From the IMG/VR virus record IMGVR_UViG_2737471839_000014: a stretch of DNA of 24,071 bases; one strand, written 5' to 3'. The notes under the pieces are model-generated. The model worked only from the letters and a program-made list of their open reading frames with translations. It was not told the origin of the DNA and searched no databases. Positions 2,017-14,874 of this stretch are shown piece after piece (position 1 is the stretch's first letter; the number at the start of each line of letters is the position of its first letter). The DNA is from a virus (lineage: Duplodnaviria; Heunggongvirae; Uroviricota; Caudoviricetes). The position numbers and the translations under genes were made by a program.

Positions 2017-2346
2017 CTATGCCACGACCTGTTCAAAATCTGCCGTTATGGTTACCCACAGCGCCCCTACGCTTGCCGACCATTTACGACAAACCACCCT
2101 GATCGGCTTCCAGTCATAAGGTGGCGTCCACTGAAATGCGCGGACGCCACCGTGCCGTTCCAGAAAGGCTTTTAAAGATGGGTGTTCACATTTACGAACA
2201 CGTATCGTCACGCTGTAAGTCGACAACTGGTTATTCAGTCCCGCCGCACGACGCTGTTCATAACCATCGCCCAGCTTCACTGTCACCACTTTCGGCTCTG
2301 ATACCACATTCATATCCGGGCGCACTTTCCAGTGAAACGTCTCCAT
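2017..2346 (-). CDS. M: minor tail protein M
   Basis: 109 aa, same length and position as lambda gpM; ATG at 2346 overlaps H stop (TAATG). Confidence 0.9.
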   Translation of the reverse strand: METFHWKVRPDMNVVSEPKVVTVKLGDGYEQRRAAGLNNQLSTYSVTIRVRKCEHPSLKAFLERHGGVRAFQWTPPYDWKPIRVVCRKWSASVGALWVTITADFEQVVA

Positions 2347-5300
2347 TACCGATATGCTCCACTTAACCGACCACCATCACGGGCCTGCTGTTGCATAAAG
2401 TCCGCTGCCGCTTTTTTCCCAAGGTCATAAACCACCTTCAGGGCAGCCGGACCTATCTGCCCGTTCGTGCCATCGTTATTGATCTCGATGTTGTACTGCG
2501 GGGCAAACATCGCCATACCTGAACCACCAATATCCGCCACAACCCCCAGCTTACCGTCAGCACCACGACGCAGAGGCAGAATGGCTTCAGGTCCCGCTTC
2601 ACCCATCACACCCGCGCCTTTTGCAAAAGCAAAAAACGTCGGACGGTTAACCACCGTGCCACTGTAACGACTCAAATCAGCAGACTGATAAATCCCCCCA
2701 TTGGCATTCAGGGAAAGGCTGCTGAGATCAAATCCCAGTACACTGCCAATCCCTTTTATCGATTTCATCATGGTTGCCTGCGCCAGGATTTTCGCCATAT
2801 CTGACAGCACAGAAGAGGTGAAGGATTTGAAATTGAGTTTGCCGGTAGTGACAAAAGTTGCCAGGCCATTTCCCATGTTGCTGAAGGCTGACGAGAACAC
2901 CTGTTCTGCTGTTCCTGCCGTATTATCTGCATCCACGGTAAAATCCTGAAATGCACGCAGGACTCCGTTTTTCCAGTTACCCTGCACAACTTCAAGCTGT
3001 TGCCAGTAACGGCGATTCTCATTCAGTTGTCGGTTCAGGCTCTCCGTCAGCGCCTGCTCGGCCTTTCTGTAGTCATCCGTGTTATATGTCCCTTTCTGCT
3101 CACTATCCCGCCTCAACTGCTCCAGCTGTTGCTGGTATTTCTGGCGAAGACTCAGTTGTACCTGATATCGCTGCCGCTGCTGATCACCCATACCCACCGT
3201 GGCGATATCCAGGTCATGTTGCTGACGCTGAGCGCGCTCTTCTTCAGCCAGTTGACTGGTCAGCTGAATTGTTTTTTTCTTCAGATCGTTGAGTGCCGTC
3301 TGTTTCTGAAGCTCCTGCTGTTTTACATCCAGCAGCGTCAGTGCCTGAATCAGTTCATCTTTACGGGCCAGCACACTCTTTTCATCTGCCGTCAGTTTTT
3401 TCCCGTCCAGATCGCTGATGCGCTGCTGCAGAGCCAGAAGCTGTTTATGCGCTTCTGTCATCTTTTCAGTGACAATGCCTGCTGACTGTCTTGCAGCAGC
3501 AATCTGTCCTTCCACCTGTGCCTGTTGCTGACTGTACTGCAGCAATAACCGGGTGGCCTCATCATTACGGGTTTCGCGTGTTTTTTTCTTACCGGATGCC
3601 AGGGCTTTCTCGTAACGTTCATTTTCACGTTGTATCGCTGCATCCCTGACAGCCTGATCGGCGTACTGCATGGAATTAATACGCGCAATTTCACGCTGAT
3701 GTCGTGCTGCTTCCGTTTCATTCATCCGGTTCAGTGCAGCATTTTCAGCATTACGTCGTTTCTGTTGCTCCTGATAATTCCGCTCTGCCTGCTCTTTTGC
3801 ATCCTGCAAATCCTTCTGGCGTTTTTTCTCCTGAAGATCGTTAAGACGCTGCTGATCGTATTCAACCTGAGAAGATGATGCCGTCCAGGGGAGTCTTTTC
3901 GCCCGCGACACTTTCTCCTGTAAAGCGGCAATCTGTTCATCCAGCGAGTCTTCACGACCAATATTCATGGCCGCATCCCAGAAACGACTCCACAAATCAG
4001 ACAGATACTTCAGCGTACTGCCAAGCGCATTGAGGTTATTATCAATATCCGCAGTACGCCGACCGGTTTCCTCTGCCAGTGCAGACATGGCTATCCGTGC
4101 AGCATCACTGGACCGTCCCTGATCCCCAAGGACACGTATCTGCTCAAGCTGAGTGGCAGTAAGAAAATGCAGCTCATTGTCCAGAGCCTTCGCGGCATTT
4201 ACAGGATCATCCTTCAGCCGCTTAAACTGATTTATGGTATCGCTGACCGACTGGCCAACCGATCGCTCCATCTGTGCGGCAGCTCTCGCCACCATACCGA
4301 TATCGTTTCCACGAAATGCACCACTCCCCACCACCTGAGCCAGCGCACCGGCTGCAGCATGTTGCGTGATACCATTCCCGGAAATAGCACGACTGAGCGT
4401 CCACAGCTGCCCGGCAGTGACTCCGGCATAATGCCCCGTCAGCGACAACTGGCGGTTAAATTCTTCCCCCTCCTTCTGACCGTCATACCAGGCTTTACCC
4501 AGACCATAGACGGACGCGGCAATACCGCCAATAACCCCGCCAAGCATCATGCCTTTCGGTGACATCAGAGTGTCTATCCATCCGGCACGGTTAGCCAGCG
4601 TTATCCCGGATCCCCTCAGCGCCCCTAAATTGCCGCGGGCCAGTTCACCTATCAGAACGCCAATCTCCTGGCGGGCCGCTGCACTTTTCAGACCCAGCGA
4701 ATGCGTGGCTTTTCCTGCCTGCTCCATTTTGCGGATATACACTTCTGCAGCACTGCTTACCCCCAGCTGGGCAGCCTTAGCACGAAGCAACTCAGAAGAA
4801 GAAAGATTCTGGCGGGTTGCCTGCTCTTTAAGCTGACGGATAAACGCCACTTTCTGTCGGGTAGCCTCTTCCTCAGCCTGCGTAAGAACACGGGTTTTCG
4901 CCGTAACCTCAGAAATCAGCGCCAGATAATCCTGCTGACCAATCCCGCCACTGTTTCTGGCCTGTCGGATCTGCTGCTGAATACGCTGTAATTCCTGCAG
5001 CCCCGCACTGGCCTGTTTCACACTGTCAATCTGACGATAAAACGCGGCAGCCGCTTTATCCTGAGCCTCCGCCAGAGCCATGGCCTGCGCCTGTTCCTCG
5101 CGCATTTTCTGGCTCAGTGCCTCCATACGCTGGCGGGTTTGCTCCACCTCGCGGGCCATGCGTTCATGAGCCTGTGCGCTCTTCTCCACCGTCTGCGCAT
5201 GGACGGATGCGGCTGTTGCAGCCGAAGAAGCCGCCTGCATTGTCTGCCGGGCGGCCTGAGTCTGACGCTCCATAAAACGCTGCATACGGGCAGAAGACCG

Positions 5301-5411
5301 TTCTGCATCGCTGGCTGCACCATTCAGAAGGTTTTTGATACGGGGAATTTCATTTTTAAACTCTGCCGCATCAATCCCCAAATCAATGACCAAGTTGGCT
5401 ATCTGGTCCAT
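2346..5411 (-). CDS. H: tail tape measure protein (gpH-like)
   Basis: Track ORF 2346..5441 begins with TTG; in-frame ATG at 5411 preceded by GGAGGTG gives N-terminus MDQIANLVIDLGIDAAEF resembling lambda gpH; about 1021 aa, long coiled-coil-rich middle, Gly-rich C-terminus; between T and M. Confidence 0.9.
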   Translation of the reverse strand: MDQIANLVIDLGIDAAEFKNEIPRIKNLLNGAASDAERSSARMQRFMERQTQAARQTMQAASSAATAASVHAQTVEKSAQAHERMAREVEQTRQRMEALSQKMREEQAQAMALAEAQDKAAAAFYRQIDSVKQASAGLQELQRIQQQIRQARNSGGIGQQDYLALISEVTAKTRVLTQAEEEATRQKVAFIRQLKEQATRQNLSSSELLRAKAAQLGVSSAAEVYIRKMEQAGKATHSLGLKSAAARQEIGVLIGELARGNLGALRGSGITLANRAGWIDTLMSPKGMMLGGVIGGIAASVYGLGKAWYDGQKEGEEFNRQLSLTGHYAGVTAGQLWTLSRAISGNGITQHAAAGALAQVVGSGAFRGNDIGMVARAAAQMERSVGQSVSDTINQFKRLKDDPVNAAKALDNELHFLTATQLEQIRVLGDQGRSSDAARIAMSALAEETGRRTADIDNNLNALGSTLKYLSDLWSRFWDAAMNIGREDSLDEQIAALQEKVSRAKRLPWTASSSQVEYDQQRLNDLQEKKRQKDLQDAKEQAERNYQEQQKRRNAENAALNRMNETEAARHQREIARINSMQYADQAVRDAAIQRENERYEKALASGKKKTRETRNDEATRLLLQYSQQQAQVEGQIAAARQSAGIVTEKMTEAHKQLLALQQRISDLDGKKLTADEKSVLARKDELIQALTLLDVKQQELQKQTALNDLKKKTIQLTSQLAEEERAQRQQHDLDIATVGMGDQQRQRYQVQLSLRQKYQQQLEQLRRDSEQKGTYNTDDYRKAEQALTESLNRQLNENRRYWQQLEVVQGNWKNGVLRAFQDFTVDADNTAGTAEQVFSSAFSNMGNGLATFVTTGKLNFKSFTSSVLSDMAKILAQATMMKSIKGIGSVLGFDLSSLSLNANGGIYQSADLSRYSGTVVNRPTFFAFAKGAGVMGEAGPEAILPLRRGADGKLGVVADIGGSGMAMFAPQYNIEINNDGTNGQIGPAALKVVYDLGKKAAADFMQQQARDGGRLSGAYR

Positions 5412-6110
5412 AACGCACACCTCCGGAAATACCTTCCCCAAGATGCATCAGTTCTTCGTCCGTTCGCTCCGGTATCCCGTTCTCTTCCGGTAAAAGGCTG
5501 AAATCAGCCACCGCAGCATCACTGCTACCGGACACCATTCTCACGATCAATGCCTTCAGCGAGGCAAACTGCGCATCCATCCACACATCACTGAAGCTCT
5601 GCATCCGGAAATAATCGCCCCACTCACCAAGCTCAGTGGCCGACATTTCCGACAGCATCCGCCGCCAGTCTGCCCGCCGGAACTCCCGGGCAAGCCGCAT
5701 GACAAACTGCATTTCCCGCGTCAGGACTTTTCCGGCGTCAGCACCTCATGCTCCAAATCCCCGGCATTCTCAATGACTCCCATACCGCTCAGCGACAGAA
5801 CCATCTCCGCCCCCGCTCCCAGGGCATCATACGACCATGTTGTAATAACGGATGCGCAAAGCGTCTCAACATCCTGAGACTGTTCCGCATTCCACAGTGA
5901 GCGGGAAACCAGCCAGGCATTGATATCCATCCCCATCCGCAGAAAAGCAATCTGTCGTTCAGCCTCCGGCAGTTCTCCCTCTTCGGCATCAAACTTTGCC
6001 GTTCGCTGCTGAACAAACGCCAGATATTCAATTCTCTGCAGCCCGGACAGCTCACTGAGCACCACGGACTGCTTTTCATAATTAAACGTGCCCTGTTTCA
6101 GAAACATCAT
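5383..6110 (-). CDS. T: G-T tail assembly chaperone fusion made by programmed -1 ribosomal frameshift
   Basis: -1 frame relative to G is open from 5745 through the 109 aa T ORF (5383..5712); slippery-like GGAAAAG at 5733..5727 lies 4 nt before the G stop; same arrangement as lambda G/GT. Confidence 0.6.
5721..6110 (-). CDS. G: tail assembly chaperone G
   Basis: ATGATG at 6110/6107 preceded by GGTGGAG; product MMFLKQGTFNYE...SELSGLQRIEYLAF resembles lambda gpG; stop TGA at 5721-5723; track ORF is extended upstream because an earlier non-ATG codon is in frame. Confidence 0.85.
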   Translation of the reverse strand: MMFLKQGTFNYEKQSVVLSELSGLQRIEYLAFVQQRTAKFDAEEGELPEAERQIAFLRMGMDINAWLVSRSLWNAEQSQDVETLCASVITTWSYDALGAGAEMVLSLSGMGVIENAGDLEHEVLTPEKS

Positions 6111-6123
6111 GTTCTCCACCTGC

Positions 6124-6146
6124 AAAAAAGCCCCGGATAACCGGGG
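6124..6146 (-). terminator. intrinsic terminator-like hairpin between V and G
   Basis: minus strand reads CCCCGGTTATCCGGGG followed by CTTTTTT, immediately upstream of the G ribosome binding site. Confidence 0.45.
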
Positions 6147-6167
6147 CAAATGATGAGTATCGTCCTG

Positions 6168-6911
6168 TTAACCTGCGGCGCTGACAGCCACCGCAGCCAC
6201 TGCCACAAAATCGCCGTCAGAAGTCATGCCCACAATGCTGACACTGCCCTGCTTCACGCCTTTCACCGTGGCCACAAGCCCGTTCAGGGTCACCGTGGCA
6301 GTCTGTGGATCTGTCGAATGCACACTGATCGCTTTGTCACTGGCTCCGTCAGGTTTTACTGTAAAGGTCAGCGTGGTGGTTGCTCCCACTTTTACACTGG
6401 CAGATGCCGGTGCCACCGTCAGCCCGGTAACGCTCACTGTTTCAGTGCCTTCCTCTGCCAGATACGGACGCCCCACACCGCTGATTTTCACTGTGCGGGT
6501 CATCACGTCTTTTGAGGCAATGGTTTTACCCAGTGAGCTCAGCCAGCCACGGAAAACATCAACAGTGCCGTTGGGATATTTGATACGAAACGCGCAGACT
6601 TCACCGGAGTCGAACAACTGAACCAGTTTTTTCTGCCCGCTGTCACCCGGACGCCAGGCCAGCGTCGCCGAAGTATCACCGACGGATTTCTGCCCCTGGG
6701 TTGTCGTTTTCCAGTCTGCATCTTCATCATCGAGATAAGTGTCATCTTCTGCATCAGCGGTCATTTCGCCAGGTTGCAGATCCTTCACCATCGCAAGACG
6801 CAGCCAGTCAGTGTCCGATAAAGGGTTCGCAAACGCATCGCCCTTGCCGGTGTACATCCAGAACGTCGTTCCCGCACCTTTCGTTTTTGCCAGTGGATTT
6901 GGTGTGGTCAT
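6168..6911 (-). CDS. V: major tail protein V with C-terminal Ig-like domain
   Basis: ATG at 6911 preceded by AAAGGAGG; N-terminus MTTPNPLAKTKGAGTT and internal YLDDEDADW, FPNGTVDVFRGW match recalled lambda gpV; track start at 6917 is a GTG two codons upstream. Confidence 0.9.
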   Translation of the reverse strand: MTTPNPLAKTKGAGTTFWMYTGKGDAFANPLSDTDWLRLAMVKDLQPGEMTADAEDDTYLDDEDADWKTTTQGQKSVGDTSATLAWRPGDSGQKKLVQLFDSGEVCAFRIKYPNGTVDVFRGWLSSLGKTIASKDVMTRTVKISGVGRPYLAEEGTETVSVTGLTVAPASASVKVGATTTLTFTVKPDGASDKAISVHSTDPQTATVTLNGLVATVKGVKQGSVSIVGMTSDGDFVAVAAVAVSAAG

Positions 6912-6922
6912 TGCCACCTCCT

Positions 6923-8588: not shown

Positions 8589-10547
8589 TTACGCCGTACA
8601 TTTCACCAGACCGCGGTGATCAACTGGCGCGACACCGGCGTCAATACGCACTTTCGTTGTCACGCCATCCACACTGAAGCCCTCCATCTGATCAATATAT
8701 GGCGTATCCACACCGTTGAGATAAGCCACTTCAATCGTATCGGAGCCTTTTGACGCAGCCAGGTAGAAGGTGGTCTGGCTGTTATCATCAAGACGAGGCT
8801 CTGCAATAACGGTCGCAAAATCTTTCACCGGGTTAATAATACCGGCGTTAATGTCAGCCCCCTTGACACTTGAGGAGCGAATGACCTGGTTAGCAACAGA
8901 CTCCATCGCCGTCGGTACCAGTACGAACGCAGGACGAATATTCAGATGACGCTCCCCCTCTTTCTGAACGCGCATCAACTGGCGGGCTTTATCCAGCGAT
9001 GCCACGTCCATTGCAGCGCTCTCCAGTACGTTTGCATGTTTCGCTTTATCGAACAGACTTACATTATCTGTGGAGATTTTCGGGTTAGACGTCAGAATGG
9101 CATAAACCAGATCGGCAATAGTGGATTTCGCCGCACGGCCCAGTTTCATCGGGACATCGGTCAGCATATTCAGATCATCATTGATAATGGCCTGACGGGT
9201 GATACTGAACAGCTCGCCATAGGTCGCCAGTGCAATAGTGGCCTGTTTATCTCCGGTGGTGACGTATTTATATTCCGCCCCTTCACGCACCTGACGTAGA
9301 GCACTGAAGCCCCCCATACCCACACGATGGGCAATTTTAAAATCAGACAACTGACCTTTCCGCGTCCACTGTTCATAGGTTTCAGGGGCATCTTCCCAGC
9401 CCTGCAGAATGGCTTTGTTCGCAACATCCAGCAGAATATTACCGAAGTCAGACGTACTGTGTGTGAACGCCGCACCGACCATCTGCATCGGGTTATAACC
9501 GGAAACCCCAATACCCCGTTCAGTTAGTGACATACGGGCATATTCACGCAGGGTCATCCCGTTGTAGACATTATCACGTTCGGTTTTTTCAAATCCGGCA
9601 CGCGCCATCAGCGCCTGGCGAATCCCGTCCCCCACAAAATTACCGTTACCGGCATAAATATGAGCCGGGGTATTTTTATTGGATGGCGTGGACTCGCGCC
9701 CCATCTCGTTCAACAGCTTTTCACGGGCCTGCTCCAGCGAACATTCAGGATCGGCAAGACACTGGGCCTGCAGCGTCTGATAACGCCCGCCAAACATGGC
9801 AAACAGATCATTAATACCGTTTACACGCGCTTTTTGCTCTGCCAGTACCTGCGCACGGATACTGTTTTCATCCACCACGGGTGCTGCTGCCTGCACTGGC
9901 GTCCGGGAGGCTGCAGGTTCATCATCCTGTACGCGTGGAGCACTGTTGCGTGGCGGAGTAATCATGTTTCGAATGGATTCCGGCATCTTTTTAAATTCCT
10001 CTGTACGTTTTGACTGAATACATGCCATTGCCTTAACGGCTGGTGTCACCTGATCAGCAAATCCCTGTGCCAGACATTCGGCACCGGACATCCAGGTCTC
10101 ATCCGCCAGCATGGCAGCAATTTCATCGGTGGTTTTCCCGGTTTTCTGTGCATAAGCGGGTAACAGAACCGCCTCAACTTTATCGAGCAGGTCGGCATAG
10201 GTGCGCATGTCCTCCGCATCACCGCCCGTAAAGCCAAATGGTTTATGAATCATCATGAAGGAGTTTTCCGGCATAATGACCGGGTTTCCCACCATCGCAA
10301 TGACCGACGCCATTGACGCCGCCACACCGTCGACATAAACGGTAATGGACGCACCATGTGTTTTCAGTGCATTAAAAATGGCGATGCCTTCAAAGACATC
10401 GCCACCCGGTGAATTAATATGGAGATTAATGTGGGTGATATCGCCCAGTGCATTCAGATCACTGATAAACTGCTTCGCTGTAACACCCCAGAAACCAATC
10501 TCGTCATAAATATAAATATCCGCGTCACTCTGGTGACCTGCCTGCAT
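8589..10547 (-). CDS. ClpP-like prohead protease fused to HK97-fold major capsid protein
   Basis: single ORF; N-terminal region YIYDEIGFWGVTA...INSPGGDVFEG...MASVIAMVG has ClpP/S49-like protease motifs; long C-terminal region is capsid-like; ATG at 10547 is the first ATG after the portal stop; track ORF extends to 10808 in a frame overlapping portal. Confidence 0.8.
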   Translation of the reverse strand: MQAGHQSDADIYIYDEIGFWGVTAKQFISDLNALGDITHINLHINSPGGDVFEGIAIFNALKTHGASITVYVDGVAASMASVIAMVGNPVIMPENSFMMIHKPFGFTGGDAEDMRTYADLLDKVEAVLLPAYAQKTGKTTDEIAAMLADETWMSGAECLAQGFADQVTPAVKAMACIQSKRTEEFKKMPESIRNMITPPRNSAPRVQDDEPAASRTPVQAAAPVVDENSIRAQVLAEQKARVNGINDLFAMFGGRYQTLQAQCLADPECSLEQAREKLLNEMGRESTPSNKNTPAHIYAGNGNFVGDGIRQALMARAGFEKTERDNVYNGMTLREYARMSLTERGIGVSGYNPMQMVGAAFTHSTSDFGNILLDVANKAILQGWEDAPETYEQWTRKGQLSDFKIAHRVGMGGFSALRQVREGAEYKYVTTGDKQATIALATYGELFSITRQAIINDDLNMLTDVPMKLGRAAKSTIADLVYAILTSNPKISTDNVSLFDKAKHANVLESAAMDVASLDKARQLMRVQKEGERHLNIRPAFVLVPTAMESVANQVIRSSSVKGADINAGIINPVKDFATVIAEPRLDDNSQTTFYLAASKGSDTIEVAYLNGVDTPYIDQMEGFSVDGVTTKVRIDAGVAPVDHRGLVKCTA

Positions 10548-10560
10548 CCTGAACCAGGAA

Positions 10561-12069
10561 TTATTCTTCGGACTGGTCGTCGGTGTGCTGCGGCTCCTGT
10601 CGTTTCGTTGCGGCACTGCTGCCTCCTTTATCACTGGCCGGATCGGTATCAAATACCAGATCCAGCTTGCGGTTTTCATCAATTTCGGCCTTGCGCCGAC
10701 GTTTGACATCATCCGGATTACGACCACCTGCACGTACCCAGTCTGATTCTGTCGCCGCTCCACCACGAATCTGAATTTTCCAGGCCTCAGCCTCCTTAAC
10801 AGGGTCAATCCACGGCATCACCGGTCCGGAATACACCGCGGTATACAGTGAAGAACGATCAAGATCGCGGGGTAGCCTGATAACACCGGATGCCACAGCC
10901 TGTTTCAGCCAGGCACGATACATCGGGCGGGTGACGGCACCAATAAACCAGTCCTGCAGGATCAGGTAGCCATCAGTGGATTCAACCAGCTCCTGACGCT
11001 GGGCGCTGTAAGTGCCGTTATAGTTGCGTGCCGTACTGGAAAAACTCAGACGACTGCCCGCCGCCACGGCACGCAACTGACCATTACGAAAAGTTTCAAG
11101 GTTAGGATTGGGACGATCCGACTTCACCATTCCGATTTCTTCGCCGGGTTTCAGATCGTCGTAAATAATGCCTGGCTGAATGGTAAGCTCGCGTTCATTC
11201 TCCTTGCTGCCATTACCATCCGGTTCATAGCTCTGCCCGTCGCCTTTCCGGATGTACATCCCCAGAGCAGCGGCGATCCTTGCTGCAGTCAGCTCAGAAT
11301 CTTCATACTCTTTCAGGGCACTGAGGCGGATCAGCACACCGGACAACAAAGACGTCCCGCGCATCTGGTGCAGACGGCGAACAAATTTAAGATGCAGCAT
11401 TCGCTCTGCATCCACTTCTTTGGTTTCCATCTGCCGCCCGGATACGGGACGGCTTTTATACACCAGATATTTTTCGGGACGCCCCCAGTCATCAACAAAC
11501 ACGCCCTGATTCAGCCTGTTGCTCTCATCACTGGTCATGGGAATAAAGTCCGGCTCGAGCGCCTCCAGCCAGAAATGAACACCGGCAGAAGGCGTCAGGC
11601 TGTTTATGCGCCCGGAAACCATCTGGGCAAACACCTCACCATCGCGCAGCCAGGTACGCAGCATCAGACGTTCCAGCATCGGACGGGTAAACTGCCCGGT
11701 GACTTCCGGACTGACAGACCATTCACTCCATCGGGTGCGTATCTCCGCTGCCAGATCACGGGCAATGGCCCCATTGCGTAATACCGGATGTGGCTCGACA
11801 ATAATCCCGTTTTTCCCCACCACCCGTTCTTCCAGCTTGTCAAATACACCAATAACCAGATCGTGGTTGTTATCAAGGTAACGGGCCTGCTCACGTAACG
11901 ACACGGCCCCGTACTGGCTTAACTGGTCGGCAGTTCGGTTTTCCCGCCGGGCTTTGTGTGTCCGTGTCGTTTTTACGGCCTCATAAGCCTGGATCACCGC
12001 ACGGGAACGCAGCCTTGCCGCTTTCCATCCTGGTGAAAAAACGCCAATCACATCATCAAGAATTGCCAT
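10561..12069 (-). CDS. portal protein (lambda gpB family)
   Basis: about 502 aa; ATG at 12069 overlaps W stop; position between W and the protease-capsid gene; size and composition typical of lambda-family portal; track start at 12141 is a GTG. Confidence 0.85.
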   Translation of the reverse strand: MAILDDVIGVFSPGWKAARLRSRAVIQAYEAVKTTRTHKARRENRTADQLSQYGAVSLREQARYLDNNHDLVIGVFDKLEERVVGKNGIIVEPHPVLRNGAIARDLAAEIRTRWSEWSVSPEVTGQFTRPMLERLMLRTWLRDGEVFAQMVSGRINSLTPSAGVHFWLEALEPDFIPMTSDESNRLNQGVFVDDWGRPEKYLVYKSRPVSGRQMETKEVDAERMLHLKFVRRLHQMRGTSLLSGVLIRLSALKEYEDSELTAARIAAALGMYIRKGDGQSYEPDGNGSKENERELTIQPGIIYDDLKPGEEIGMVKSDRPNPNLETFRNGQLRAVAAGSRLSFSSTARNYNGTYSAQRQELVESTDGYLILQDWFIGAVTRPMYRAWLKQAVASGVIRLPRDLDRSSLYTAVYSGPVMPWIDPVKEAEAWKIQIRGGAATESDWVRAGGRNPDDVKRRRKAEIDENRKLDLVFDTDPASDKGGSSAATKRQEPQHTDDQSEE

Positions 12070-12281
12070 CAGAACCTCGCCAGCCGGTACCCGGGATGCC
12101 CCCGTCGTCGTGTAATCAGAGCCGCAAGGCGGCGCTCCCACTCCTGCCGTCCCTGCCGGATCTCAGATAAGTTTTCCATGGTCATCTGCTGACCATTAAA
12201 GGTGACGGATTTTCCGTCCAGCACCGCCATTTCAGCTTCCGTATAACGCTGAATCATGGCTTCGATATCATTCTGGTTCAT
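12069..12281 (-). CDS. head-tail joining protein (gpW-like)
   Basis: about 70 aa; ATG at 12281 overlaps terminase stop (ATGA) and follows GGAGG; C-terminal RRRGHPGY resembles lambda gpW RRRGPAGF; located between terminase and portal as in lambda. Confidence 0.65.
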   Translation of the reverse strand: MNQNDIEAMIQRYTEAEMAVLDGKSVTFNGQQMTMENLSEIRQGRQEWERRLAALITRRRGHPGYRLARF

Positions 12282-14380
12282 AACCATCCTCCGGAAGTCA
12301 GCCAGGGGTTAACATCGTCAGTTACTGTTTTCTTCCGTTTTTGTTTTTTAACAGGCGTGGATACCGGTTCCGGTGTGGGTGACGGTTCGGTACTGTCCGG
12401 GACACACTCCAGCCAGGTTTCCCGGCTCGCCCACTCCGGTGCATCCGGCCAGCGGATCTTTTCGTATCCATGCAGAATGACCAGAGCCTCGGCATACACC
12501 ATCAGGTCAAAAGCTTCGTTGGCACCGCGACCCGGCTTACTCCATTTCCCGTCACTGCTCCGCTCTTCATACGTCAGTTCGTCGTAAAACCAGCTCCCCA
12601 GCCAGTCAGGGAAATGCACATAGCCGGGACCTGGCGAGTCACGCCATAACGCGTTATTCACCCGGTCTTTCAGGGCATCCGTCTGAAGAAGCCAGAGCGG
12701 CACATCACCTGCGGCCTGCGCCCGGCGGCCCGTTCGTCCGGTGTTATCAGGGAATGTACGGCTGATCAGTTTTGCGCGCCGGATGCTGTCACCCTTAAAC
12801 AGGTAAATACGTTTACCAAGGCCATCACGACGGCAACGACGCCAGAATTTATAGGCATTATCAGTGACCCCGTCTTCACCGCCGGAGTCCACCGCCATTG
12901 CCATCAGTCGCATTTGTTGAGAAGGATCGGAGGCCAGCGGCCAGCTTTTATGAAAAACATCCGTCAGCAGGACATCCCAGTCTTCCGGATAGCTGGCCGG
13001 ATCAATTCGCTGGCTCTCCCCGTCGCTGTCACCGCGCAATGACTGCGTGATGTTGTAACGATCAATAATCCAGCGTTCGCCACGGCTGCCATAGCCCGTT
13101 ACCTGAACCACAAAACGGCGATGACGTCCCGCCTGCACATCCACTGTCGCCACAAGGAAATTAACGCCATCCGGCACACTGCGGGAAGGAACTGGCTCTG
13201 CCCGCTGCTCAAGCAATTCACTTTTTCGTTGCTCCATGCTGGCGCGGGGAAGATAAGGTAATCCCCAGTCGGTATTGATAACCGTCTTGAGTGTCTCTTC
13301 ACTTCCGGTTGTCTCGTATTCCTGTTCTGCAGTAAGCAGTTTGTAAACGAGTTGCGAGAGTGTCTGATAAGCAGCTGCCGGACCCTCCATCCAGAATGAC
13401 GCAATACGTGAACGCCGGGGATCACCATAACGACTGCCATCTGCATTGATGGATTCACCATCCCGTAACCAGACCCCACGTCCGTTCAGCTCGCGTTTTT
13501 GTTCAGGCAAAATCCGTCCTGAACAGGAAGGACACTGAATATAAGCCGCCTCACTTGCCAGCACAGGATCGGCAATATCACGGAAACCAGCAACCACATC
13601 GCCGCAGGGCTGAAAATACTCACCACAGTGTGGACAGGGCCAGTACCAGCGACGGCGATCGCCACGGTTATAGAGCGACAGGATCCCCGTGGTTGGTGGA
13701 GCCTCATGCGGTGAAGTCCGTCGCCATTTCACATCCTTCACATCCCTGCCGGGGGAACTCTCCACCAGCGTCATACCACTGGACATAAATGTGGTGGTAC
13801 GTTTTGAGGCAAGAGAGAAGGCATCCCCCTCACCATCAATATCTTCCGGAAAACGGTCATAATCCGTCAGCGCCACGCATTTATAATCTGATGAAGACAT
13901 GATATTGACTGACGGCCAGCCGATTTTCAGGTAGTTGCCAGCAAGGAATGTTCTGTCATAAACGTTGTTGTCATTTTTGTTCGGACTCAGGCGACTGACC
14001 ACTTCCGGGCTGACGCGAAACGTTCTGGCGAGTCGTTTTTTGGAGTGTTCGCGGGCTTTTTCCTCCGTCATCTGAATGATCAGCATATCAGCAGGATCGC
14101 AAATCACGTTGTAAATCACCCAGCCGTCAATCAGGCCGATAGTCTTGCCGGTTCGTGCCGGGCCAACAAATATCACTGCGTCGTATTCACGCGAGGCCAG
14201 GCAGTTCATAGGCTCAATAACATACGGTGCCACCAGCGGATCCCACGGGACTGAGTTCCCTGCCCCCATAGGCACCCGCATATACTGAGCAACGGCATCA
14301 GCAACCCGCATTCGTCTCGGTGCGCGAAGGATATAACCTGAATCGGTTCGTGCTGCCTTTGCGGTTTCCTGATTCAGCAT
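12278..14380 (-). CDS. terminase large subunit (lambda gpA family)
   Basis: 700 aa; Walker A FVGPARTGKT; ATG at 14380 preceded by AGGAGG and overlapping the small subunit stop (TAATG). Confidence 0.9.
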   Translation of the reverse strand: MLNQETAKAARTDSGYILRAPRRMRVADAVAQYMRVPMGAGNSVPWDPLVAPYVIEPMNCLASREYDAVIFVGPARTGKTIGLIDGWVIYNVICDPADMLIIQMTEEKAREHSKKRLARTFRVSPEVVSRLSPNKNDNNVYDRTFLAGNYLKIGWPSVNIMSSSDYKCVALTDYDRFPEDIDGEGDAFSLASKRTTTFMSSGMTLVESSPGRDVKDVKWRRTSPHEAPPTTGILSLYNRGDRRRWYWPCPHCGEYFQPCGDVVAGFRDIADPVLASEAAYIQCPSCSGRILPEQKRELNGRGVWLRDGESINADGSRYGDPRRSRIASFWMEGPAAAYQTLSQLVYKLLTAEQEYETTGSEETLKTVINTDWGLPYLPRASMEQRKSELLEQRAEPVPSRSVPDGVNFLVATVDVQAGRHRRFVVQVTGYGSRGERWIIDRYNITQSLRGDSDGESQRIDPASYPEDWDVLLTDVFHKSWPLASDPSQQMRLMAMAVDSGGEDGVTDNAYKFWRRCRRDGLGKRIYLFKGDSIRRAKLISRTFPDNTGRTGRRAQAAGDVPLWLLQTDALKDRVNNALWRDSPGPGYVHFPDWLGSWFYDELTYEERSSDGKWSKPGRGANEAFDLMVYAEALVILHGYEKIRWPDAPEWASRETWLECVPDSTEPSPTPEPVSTPVKKQKRKKTVTDDVNPWLTSGGWL

Positions 14381-14874
14381 TACTCCTCCTGCTGTAATTC
14401 CTCCTCATCATCCGCACCTGCTTCAGTCACCCGCAGGGCTATCTGATCGCGCAGATCATCAATAATGGACTGAACACGGCTCACAGCGGCAGGCTGCAGA
14501 CCGCAGTCACGTTCAAGAATATCCGGTAATGTCTCCAGCACCTGCACGACCGCTTTTGCCCAGATGGCAAACTCCCGTCTGACATCACTGGCCGGAATGA
14601 GTTGTGCCGTTTCCTGTTCGAACTTAAGACGCTCACGTTCAGACTGATACCAGGCTTTGCGCTCATGCGCGTCCATTTCGCCTTCTGCAACCGGCGGTGG
14701 TAATGCCAGAAATGCCGACACAATATCAACCACCCGATAAAGCTTGAGGTTGCTTTCATGCCCCCCTGCAACGGGTAGATTTTGCAGCCTTGCCGCAGCA
14801 GTCTGGCGATGTACACCTGACAATGCCGCCAGTTGACTGATATTCAGCGTCAGATTTTTTAACTCTCGATCCAT
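14380..14874 (-). CDS. terminase small subunit (Nu1-like)
   Basis: 164 aa; N-terminal HTH-like LTLNISQLAALSGVHRQTAAARLQNLPV resembles lambda Nu1 N-terminus; acidic C-terminus; ATG at 14874 with GGAG SD; about 185 nt downstream of candidate cos. Confidence 0.75.
   Translation of the reverse strand: MDRELKNLTLNISQLAALSGVHRQTAAARLQNLPVAGGHESNLKLYRVVDIVSAFLALPPPVAEGEMDAHERKAWYQSERERLKFEQETAQLIPASDVRREFAIWAKAVVQVLETLPDILERDCGLQPAAVSRVQSIIDDLRDQIALRVTEAGADDEEELQQEE

What the first reader, a model, noticed from the sequence alone, without database searches (positions are those of the whole stretch)
5721..5748. G-T programmed -1 frameshift site with a non-lambda slippery sequence
The -1 frame relative to G opens at 5745 and continues through the T ORF to 5383. 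The only slip-prone motif in the overlap is GGAAAAG (5733..5727, minus strand), 4 nt before the G stop, in place of lambda's GGGAAAG. The A-site Lys codon AAG can re-pair on AAA, but the P-site re-pairing (GAA on GGA) is imperfect, so efficiency and mechanism may differ from lambda.
Basis: partly seen in the sequence, partly recalled or inferred. Interest (0 to 1): 0.4.

Follow-up and report, generated by a model that had tools for sequence, protein, structure and literature searches.

The report
N15-type G-T tail chaperone frameshift site
This is the ordinary programmed -1 ribosomal frameshift that fuses the two tail-assembly chaperone genes of a lambda-like E. coli prophage; it uses the GGAAAAG slippery sequence already annotated in phage N15 instead of lambda's GGGAAAG.

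Summary
On the minus strand, gene G (6110..5721) ends ACG CCG GAA AAG TCC TGA. The -1 frame is open from 5745 and runs through the T domain to 5383. G_GAA_AAG (5733..5727) is the only slip-prone motif in the 25-nt overlap.

Comparison of 213 distinct related G-T regions (36 clusters at 85% nt identity) shows an NNNA_AAR heptamer at exactly the same distance, 42 nt, from a conserved T motif in every one. GGAAAAG occurs in 25 of the 36 clusters.

Three features point to selection on the nucleotides themselves:
- The first G of the heptamer is a silent third-codon position, yet it is G in 34/36 clusters across six different amino acids.
- Neighbouring third positions vary freely.
- T-frame residues upstream of the window's ATG 5712 are conserved, and in 16/36 clusters no start codon exists before the conserved T core.

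Translation therefore has to enter T by a frameshift at this heptamer.

This is not new. GenBank records of phage N15 and phage LLS annotate GGAAAAG as the -1 slippery sequence. The same G-T region is in viable phages (mEp460, Ayreon, cdtI) and in 1848 of 5426 complete E. coli genomes.

One point stays open: G_GAA_AAG is poorly slippery in vitro, so its efficiency and any stimulators are untested.

The parts
5721..6110 (-). Gene G, tail assembly chaperone (129 aa; ATG 6110, stop TGA 5723..5721)
   Evidence: Translation. Pfam Phage_TAC_2, E 3e-39. RefSeq annotates identical DNA as 'phage tail assembly chaperone G'.
5727..5733 (-). Slippery heptamer G_GAA_AAG. The P-site codon is GAA (Glu) and the A-site codon is AAG (Lys).
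   Evidence: Sequence. Same heptamer at the homologous position in 25 of 36 sequence clusters, and invariant in all 66 distinct sequences of the window's own cluster. Annotated as the -1 slippery sequence in N15 and LLS.
5721..5745 (-). G / -1 frame overlap (25 nt), the only stretch where a -1 shift can join G to T
   Evidence: Across relatives the intersection of the permitted windows shrinks to about positions -2..+10 around the heptamer. The T frame opens at -2 in L308, and the G stop directly follows the heptamer in the Proteus-type loci.
5383..5727 (-). T-frame part of the G-T fusion (114 aa, VLTREMQFVMRLAREFRRADWRRML...; stop TGA 5385..5383)
   Evidence: Translation. Pfam Phage_tail_T, E 2e-14. 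Alignments A1/A2 with invariant E5, F8, L12, E15....
5710..5712 (-). ATG in the T frame, used by RefSeq as the start of a separate T gene. It is clade-specific and probably not the main entry to T.
   Evidence: Present in only one of 36 clusters at this position. Weak SD-like pairing (-4.3 kcal/mol) with zero spacing. The conserved T-frame codons CGG GAA (R4, E5; 5718..5713) lie upstream of it.
5742..5747 (-). SD-like GAGGTG, 8 nt 5' of the heptamer. This is a candidate frameshift stimulator and is unproven.
   Evidence: Duplex with the 16S 3' end is -9.2 kcal/mol, in the top 7% of windows in its own G gene. It is not conserved family-wide and is polymorphic (GAGGCG) within the clade.
2346..5411 (-). 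Tape measure gene H, whose start overlaps the end of T (context)
   Evidence: Pfam TMP_2, TMP_4 and Tape_meas_lam_C. Strong SD upstream, -13.3 kcal/mol.
6168..6917 (-). Major tail tube gene V (context)
   Evidence: Pfam Phage_TTP_12 plus Big_2.

Best explanation
A small fraction of ribosomes translating G slip back one base on G_GAA_AAG (5733..5727) and continue in the T frame. They make a G-T fusion (...TPEK|VLTREMQF...) alongside the abundant G protein. By homology with lambda gpG/gpGT, the G part binds the tape measure protein and the T part recruits the tail tube protein.

At the slip, the A-site tRNA-Lys moves from AAG to AAA, which is a full match. The P-site tRNA-Glu moves from GAA to GGA, with the first and third positions matched and a central G.U pair.

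Shown here: the anatomy, the conservation of the heptamer at nucleotide level, and the absence of any other route into the conserved start of T.

Inferred: the fusion protein itself, its amount, the timing of the slip (tandem or sequential), and any stimulator.
For: 1. Gene order V-G-T-H-M-L-K-I, with Pfam Phage_TAC_2 and Phage_tail_T on the two frames.

2. In 213 distinct related regions the heptamer sits exactly 42 nt before the T motif. Positions 2, 4, 5 and 6 are invariant and position 1 is G in 34/36 clusters. Position 1 is the third base of codons for Pro, Leu, Ala, Val, Met and Lys, while the third positions at -3, -6 and -9 vary freely.

3. The Lys codon is AAG in 29/36 clusters, against 24% AAG usage in E. 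coli. AAG is the shiftiest A-site codon in E. coli (PMC4066793).

4. T-frame residues between the slip site and the first possible start codon are conserved (E5, F8, L12, E15, R18, D20, W21). In 16/36 clusters the first ATG/GTG/TTG in the T frame is at +76, inside the conserved core.

5. The same DNA (97-99.6% identical) is in viable phages Ayreon, mEp460, cdtI and Tritos.

6. N15 (NC_001901, 10027..10033) and LLS (PQ299149) annotate GGAAAAG as the -1 slippery sequence. The Gifsy-1, Gifsy-2 and HK225 records describe the T product as part of a frameshift fusion.

7. Homologous positions in other clades hold canonical heptamers: GGGAAAG (lambda-like, 83 loci), AAAAAAG (Stx2 phage) and C_CCA_AAA (Vibrio phages).
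Against: - No protein data exist for this heptamer in its natural context.
- In a reconstituted E. coli system, AUG GAA AAG gave mainly 0-frame product, whereas G GGA AAG shifted readily (PMC6924986).
- A bare A_AAG tetramer is near background (about 0.15%) without a strong 3' stimulator (PMC4066793).
- The window has no downstream structure more stable than shuffled sequence (z -1.09 and +0.38; z +0.24) and no conserved family-wide structure.
- The window also has an in-frame ATG at 5712, which could in principle give free T.
Confidence: 0.86

Rival explanations
1. T is made as a separate protein. Ribosomes initiate at ATG 5712, or reinitiate there after terminating at the G stop 9 nt upstream. 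The heptamer plays no role.
For: An ATG exists at 5712, and RefSeq and several phage records annotate T as a separate CDS from it. The G stop and the ATG are close enough for coupling.
Against: - The ATG at this position is found in only one of 36 clusters, and 16 clusters have no start codon before +76.
- The invariant T-frame residues R4 and E5 lie upstream of it, outside the G reading frame.
- SD-like pairing is weak (-4.3 kcal/mol) and abuts the ATG.
- This reading does not explain the nucleotide-level conservation of the heptamer.
Confidence: 0.06
2. The shift is a single-tRNA event on A_AAG only. tRNA-Lys slips alone, either in the A site or in the P site while the next codon is awaited. 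The preceding GAA codon matters only through the wobble properties of its tRNA, as described for NNA_AAG sites.
For: - Relatives carry GGCAAAA, GGTAAAG, AGAAAAG and CGAAAAG at the same position, where the P-site tRNA cannot re-pair well.
- NNA_AAG single-slip sites are established in E. coli (PMC5009743 section 31).
- All P-site codons seen (GAA, GGA, GCA, GUA) end in A. In E. coli such codons are read by tRNAs carrying a modified U34 (my own knowledge).
Against: - Heptamer position 1 is G in 34/36 clusters although it is a silent position. This fits re-pairing of the first base of a GNA-reading P-site tRNA, i.e. a two-tRNA shift.
- A bare A_AAG needs a strong stimulator, and none is evident in the window.
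- The peptide product is identical in both models, so sequence data cannot separate them.
Confidence: 0.3
3. The site is a decayed lambda-type site (GGGAAAG mutated to GGAAAAG) in a defective prophage and no longer works.
For: It differs from lambda's heptamer by one base. G GAA AAG is poorly slippery in vitro.
Against: - The heptamer is identical in plaque-forming phages (Ayreon on K12, mEp460, LLS, phi80, N15).
- It is invariant in 66 distinct sequences of the window's cluster and kept in relatives whose T domains are as little as 43-45% identical.
- The module is present in 1848/5426 complete E. coli genomes.
Confidence: 0.02
4. The fusion arises from RNA polymerase slippage on the A run rather than from the ribosome.
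For: The heptamer contains four consecutive A.
Against: From my own knowledge, productive transcriptional slippage in bacteria needs much longer homopolymer runs than four A. The conservation pattern follows codon phase (G_GNA_AAR, with AAG preferred over AAA), which fits tRNA re-pairing and not run length.
Confidence: 0.01

Closest known systems
Phage N15 genes 14/15 (NC_001901), and the related phi80, HK225 and LLS G-T genes
   Same: Identical heptamer GGAAAAG at the homologous position, 42 nt before the T motif. It is annotated as 'slippery sequence for -1 translational frameshift' in N15 and 'minus-one programmed translational frameshift site GGAAAAG' in LLS.
   Different: - The T domain is only about 41-45% identical to the window's.
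- The G stop is 5 codons after the heptamer instead of 1.
- These clades have a 6-8 bp stem starting 5-6 nt after the heptamer, which the window lacks.
- They lack the upstream SD-like element.
Phage lambda G/GT frameshift (Levin, Hendrix, Casjens 1993; Xu, Hendrix, Duda 2004, 2013, 2014, as cited in PMC5009743)
   Same: Same gene pair, same position of the slip relative to the T domain, same A-site Lys codon AAG, and same -1 direction. The fusion is made about 4% of the time in lambda (PMC3296357).
   Different: Lambda uses the canonical G_GGA_AAG, with Gly in the P site. The window has G_GAA_AAG, with Glu in the P site and a central G.U pair after the shift. The T domains are about 38% identical.
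Gifsy-1, Gifsy-2 and Fels-1 prophages of Salmonella
   Same: Same CCG GAA AAG YCC TGA ending, with the stop one codon after the heptamer. About 67-70% nt identity. The records describe T as part of a frameshift product.
   Different: Different host. The upstream G tail sequence is not alignable apart from the last codons.
NNA_AAG / A_AAG single-slip sites (IS1222 G_CGA_AAG, Bacillus cdd A_CGA_AAG; Licznar 2003 and Sharma 2014, as summarised in PMC5009743 and PMC4066793)
   Same: An in-frame A_AAG decoded by the single E. coli tRNA-Lys. The P-site tRNA is imperfectly re-paired.
   Different: Those sites depend on strong 3' stimulators, and none is evident here. In this family position 1 of the heptamer is conserved, which suggests the P-site tRNA does take part.
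E. coli dnaX A_AAA_AAG
   Same: A-site AAG to AAA re-pairing. The window has a possible SD-like element 8 nt upstream (dnaX uses an upstream SD-like sequence and a stem-loop; PMC6924986).
   Different: dnaX has a fully canonical heptamer and proven stimulators, and about half of ribosomes shift. No such efficiency is expected here.

Membership tests
Tailed-phage tail assembly chaperone G/GT programmed frameshift (lambda type) | Two overlapping ORFs lying between the major tail (tube) gene and the tape measure gene | tested here: met
   V 6917..6168, G 6110..5721, T frame 5745..5383, H 5411..2346
Tailed-phage tail assembly chaperone G/GT programmed frameshift (lambda type) | The upstream ORF is a chaperone of the gpG family, and the downstream ORF is in the -1 frame and of the gpT family | tested here: met
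   Pfam Phage_TAC_2 (E 3e-39) and Phage_tail_T (E 2e-14) on the modelled fusion. Frame arithmetic.
Tailed-phage tail assembly chaperone G/GT programmed frameshift (lambda type) | The downstream ORF has no conserved start of its own, and coding conservation reaches back to the slip site | tested here: met
   16/36 clusters have no start codon before +76. R4/E5 are invariant in the 12-sequence alignment A1 and E5 also in A2; they lie upstream of ATG 5712.
Tailed-phage tail assembly chaperone G/GT programmed frameshift (lambda type) | A slip-prone sequence conserved in the overlap | tested here: met
   NNNA_AAR at a fixed distance in 213/213 distinct regions, with near-invariant positions 1, 2, 4, 5 and 6
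Tailed-phage tail assembly chaperone G/GT programmed frameshift (lambda type) | A fusion protein is made at a low fixed ratio and is needed for tail assembly | not testable with these tools
   Needs protein analysis or phage genetics
Canonical X_XXY_YYZ tandem-slippage heptamer | Positions 1-3 identical and positions 4-6 identical, so that both tRNAs re-pair fully | tested here: not met
   G_GAA_AAG: positions 1-3 are G, G, A. After the shift tRNA-Glu faces GGA. It therefore works like a heptamer site but is not a canonical one.
N15-type GGAAAAG G-T slippery site | Heptamer GGAAAAG in the G frame as G_GAA_AAG, at the homologous position relative to the T domain | tested here: met
   Same register as N15, phi80, HK225 and LLS
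Stimulator-dependent A_AAG tetramer / NNA_AAG sites | A strong 3' structure 4-10 nt after the motif | tested here: not met
   Window downstream folds are no better than shuffles. There is no family-wide consensus structure.
dnaX-like SD-stimulated -1 frameshift | A Shine-Dalgarno-like sequence at a suitable distance 5' of the heptamer | tested here: inconclusive
   GAGGTG lies 8 nt upstream, at -9.2 kcal/mol, in the top 7% of its own gene. It is not conserved across the family and sits in a Glu-rich tail that makes such strings by chance.

The most novel reading that the evidence does not exclude
The near-universal core of this family is G_GNA_AAR rather than X_XXY_YYZ. The intrinsically weak G_GAA_AAG version may reach a useful G-T level through interchangeable, clade-specific helpers:
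- an internal SD-like GAGGUG 8 nt upstream in the window's clade;
- a stem 5-6 nt downstream in the N15/phi80 clade;
- a stop codon directly after the heptamer in the Proteus-type clade.

Alternatively, these phages may run at a much lower GT:G ratio than lambda. Because both slipping tRNAs (Glu and Lys) carry the mnm5s2U34 modification, the site may also be unusually sensitive to host tRNA thiolation.
Probability: 0.3. Interest if true: 0.45.

Novelty: already known. Interest (0 to 1): 0.2.

Why it matters
For genome annotation, the G and T genes of this very common E. coli prophage module should be joined by a -1 frameshift at GGAAAAG. The module is in about a third of complete genomes, and RefSeq currently gives T its own start.

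For the recoding field it is a reminder that the heptamer used as a 'non-slippery' control in vitro is the majority natural site in a large clade of lambdoid tail chaperone genes. Its in vivo efficiency and helpers are worth one reporter experiment. Nothing here changes the known picture of how tail chaperone frameshifting works.

Tried and rejected
- Licznar 2003 (EMBO J) and Xu 2004 (Mol Cell) could not be read. Whether they list or measured G_GAA_AAG is therefore unknown to me.
- Full-text searches for GGAAAAG, 'GAA AAG' and 'GAAAAG' with frameshift or tail terms found no phage paper. They found only the Peng 2019 in vitro study.
- An exhaustive hairpin scan with shuffles timed out. It was replaced by fixed-window folds and RNAalifold.
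- The first viral-contig scan returned only near-identical loci. Diversity came from re-running with distant members as the first sequence.
- A decayed site was considered and rejected because viable phages carry it.
- Transcriptional slippage was considered and rejected because the run is only four A.
- A conserved family-wide downstream structure was looked for and not found.
- The apparent inverse relation between upstream SD-like strength and the downstream stem was not pursued as a claim. It rests on perhaps two or three independent clades and on biased composition.

Full report
WHAT IS THERE

The minus strand of the window carries a complete lambda-like morphogenesis module:
- terminase (14874..12278) and a lambda-family portal (12141..10561);
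- a ClpP-protease/capsid fusion ORF (10808..8589) and a cement protein;
- Z, U, the tail tube gene V (6917..6168), G (6110..5721) and the T frame (5745..5383);
- the tape measure gene H (5411..2346), then M, L, K and I.

G ends ...GAG GTG CTG ACG CCG GAA AAG TCC TGA. The -1 frame has a stop at 5748..5746, is open from 5745, and reads GGT GCT GAC GCC GGA AAA GTC CTG ACG CGG GAA ATG... down to TGA 5385..5383. The heptamer G_GAA_AAG is 5733..5727, one codon (TCC) before the G stop. A modelled fusion (G through Lys, then VLTREMQF...) matches Pfam Phage_TAC_2 (E 3e-39) and Phage_tail_T (E 2e-14).

IS IT MORE THAN CHANCE?

The string GGAAAAG is not rare in the window: 6 matches against 4.2 expected. 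The evidence is therefore comparative.

I collected loci from one genome per species, from IMG/VR and from GenBank phages. Of 426 sequences in the first set (425 fetched loci plus the window), 422 carried the T motif E[FM]xRxDWR, and these gave 213 distinct G-T regions. In every one of the 213, an in-frame NNNA_AAR heptamer ends exactly 42 nt upstream of that motif.

Clustered at 85% nucleotide identity, these make 36 clusters:

| Heptamer | Clusters |
|---|---|
| GGAAAAG | 25 |
| GGCAAAA | 5 |
| GGTAAAG | 1 |
| GGGAAAA | 1 |
| GGGAAAG (lambda) | 1 |
| GGAAAAA | 1 |
| AGAAAAG or CGAAAAG | 2 |

The lambda-like 'LAREM' clade was sampled separately. It has GGGAAAG in 83 of 86 loci, a Stx2 phage type has AAAAAAG, and Vibrio phages have C_CCA_AAA. 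In the window's own cluster, all 66 distinct sequences have GGAAAAG.

NUCLEOTIDE-LEVEL SELECTION

- Across the 36 cluster representatives, heptamer positions 2, 4, 5 and 6 are invariant. Position 7 is G in 29 and A in 7. Position 3 varies (A 28, C 5, G 2, T 1).
- Position 1 is G in 34. Position 1 is the third base of the preceding codon, which encodes Pro, Leu, Ala, Val, Met or Lys in different clusters.
- By contrast, the third-codon positions at -3, -6 and -9 are close to random.
- The Lys codon is AAG in 29/36 clusters, whereas E. coli uses AAG for 24% of Lys codons (PMC3296357 Table 2). The nominal binomial p is 1e-12 and ignores relatedness.
- A_AAG is the most shift-prone tetramer in E. 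coli (PMC4066793).

These patterns are what selection for tRNA re-pairing predicts. Selection on the G protein would not produce them.

NO OTHER WAY INTO T

In alignments of T-frame translations starting at the slip site, R4 and E5 are invariant among 12 sequences. E5, F8, L12, E15, R18, D20 and W21 remain invariant among 14 sequences that include lambda. In the window, R4 and E5 are CGG GAA at 5718..5713. That is downstream of the G stop and upstream of ATG 5712, so neither G coding nor a T protein starting at 5712 explains their conservation.

No ATG, GTG or TTG occurs in the T frame between its opening and the heptamer in any representative. In 16 of 36 clusters the first candidate start is at +76, inside the conserved LAREFxRPDWRxML core. 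An ATG at +22 (the window's 5712) occurs only in the window's cluster. Its SD-like pairing is weak (-4.3 kcal/mol) and abuts the ATG, compared with -7.0 for G and -13.3 for H.

The permitted shift window also narrows across relatives. The T frame opens at -2 in one cluster and at -5 in three. The G stop follows the heptamer directly in eleven clusters. The intersection of these windows is essentially the heptamer.

NOT A DEAD PROPHAGE REMNANT

The 951-bp region is 97-99.6% identical to phages Ayreon (host K12), mEp460, cdtI, Tritos and others. The 728-bp G-T region is in 1848 of 5426 complete E. coli genomes, mostly at 95% identity or more. RefSeq annotates G and T there as separate genes, with T starting at the ATG.

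ALREADY KNOWN

- The N15 record (NC_001901) has a misc_feature at 10027..10033, 'slippery sequence for -1 translational frameshift', and the bases are GGAAAAG.
- The LLS record (PQ299149) has a joined CDS and the feature 'minus-one programmed translational frameshift site GGAAAAG'.
- phi80 and HK225 have the same heptamer.
- The Gifsy-1 and Gifsy-2 records call T part of a frameshift product and have the same CCG GAA AAG TCC TGA as the window.

The window is thus one more copy of the N15-type site in a lambda-type G-T gene pair.

HOW IT MOST LIKELY WORKS

After GAA and AAG are decoded, tRNA-Lys re-pairs from AAG to AAA, and tRNA-Glu from GAA to GGA. The first and third positions of the Glu pairing are kept, with a central G.U pair. 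Translation continues with GUC CUG ACG CGG GAA.

The conservation of position 1 argues that the P-site tRNA takes part. All P-site codons in the family are GNA (GAA, GGA, GCA, GUA), so a G at position 1 preserves the first base pair after the shift. Variants such as GGCAAAA or CGAAAAG show that full P-site re-pairing is not essential. This is in line with published work on NNA_AAG sites (PMC5009743 section 31). It also fits thermodynamic data showing that single G.U mismatches in the -1 frame are tolerated when stimulators are present (PMC6787027). Tandem, sequential and single-tRNA routes all give the same peptide, so sequence alone cannot separate them.

THE OPEN POINT: EFFICIENCY

In a reconstituted E. 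coli system, AUG GAA AAG gave mainly 0-frame product at all EF-G concentrations. There it served as the 'less slippery' control for G GGA AAG (PMC6924986). A bare A_AAG is near background in vivo (about 0.15%) and reaches 5.6% only with a strong pseudoknot (PMC4066793).

I looked for helpers:
- **Downstream structure.** The window's downstream 50 and 90 nt fold no better than shuffles (z +0.38 and -1.09). There is no family-wide consensus structure.
- **Upstream SD-like element.** GAGGTG at 5747..5742, 8 nt before the heptamer, pairs with the 16S 3' end at -9.2 kcal/mol. That is in the top 7% of windows in its own gene. However, it is polymorphic (GAGGCG), is not conserved across the family, and lies in a Glu-rich tail.
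- **Other clades.** The N15/phi80-type clusters lack the SD-like element. They do have a 6-8 bp stem (GCCAGY...RCTGGC) starting 5-6 nt after the heptamer, with T:A and C:G alternatives at one pair.
- **Adjacent stop.** Eleven clusters have the G stop directly after the heptamer, and every AAA-ending heptamer (7/7) is followed by TAG.

These could be alternative stimulators, but the sample has few independent clades. I treat this as a hypothesis.

VERDICT

The feature is an already annotated kind of site in a very common prophage module. The only residual interest is quantitative: how much G-T fusion this weak heptamer yields, and what helps it.

Noticed in passing
window 6124..6147 (minus strand): A terminator-like hairpin, GCCCCGG-TTAT-CCGGGGC followed by TTTTTT, lies between the tail tube gene V and G. 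The same element is annotated as a terminator in Ayreon, mEp460 and N15. It may lower transcription of G and the genes downstream relative to V.
   Followed up: partly
L515:1039-1072 (N15); also the phi80, HK225 and LLS-type loci: In the N15/phi80-type clades, but not in the window's clade, a 6-8 bp stem (CGCCAGT...ACTGGCG in N15) starts 5-6 nt after GGAAAAG with a loop of about 20 nt. One pair alternates T:A (11 clusters) and C:G (4 clusters). Downstream fold z-scores reach -2.7. It is a possible frameshift stimulator.
   Followed up: partly
Loci L014, L015, L023, L122, L142, L276, L356 (heptamer plus next codon): Every heptamer ending in AAA (GGCAAAA, GGGAAAA, GGAAAAA; 7 of 7 clusters) is followed directly by the G stop TAG. 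AAG-ending heptamers are mostly followed by a sense codon. This suggests that an adjacent stop compensates for the less shifty AAA.
   Followed up: no
window 5383..5712 and 1848 E. coli genomes (e.g. L426:699-1028): RefSeq annotates T as an independent gene starting at the clade-specific ATG, with no frameshift join to G. This is probably a systematic annotation gap for this module.
   Followed up: partly
window 5736..5747 and the homologous positions -14..-3 in relatives: The last residues of G form a conserved peptide pattern E-x-x-[TS]-x-E-K. GA at -14/-13 occurs in 34/36 clusters and C at -4 in 31/36, while the rest of the acidic tail is not alignable. It is unclear whether this reflects protein function, a nascent-peptide effect or RNA.
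   Followed up: no
L507 (Stx2a phage Stx2_14040); L510 and L511 (Vibrio phages): At the homologous G-T position a Stx2 phage has the dnaX-type heptamer AAAAAAG. Vibrio phages have C_CCA_AAA one codon further from the T motif. The family thus samples many heptamers around a constant A_AAR.
   Followed up: partly
window 8589..10808 (minus strand): A single 739-aa ORF combines a ClpP-type protease domain (residues 95-255) with a phage capsid domain (441-736). Its listed TTG start overlaps the end of the portal gene by about 250 nt.
   Followed up: no
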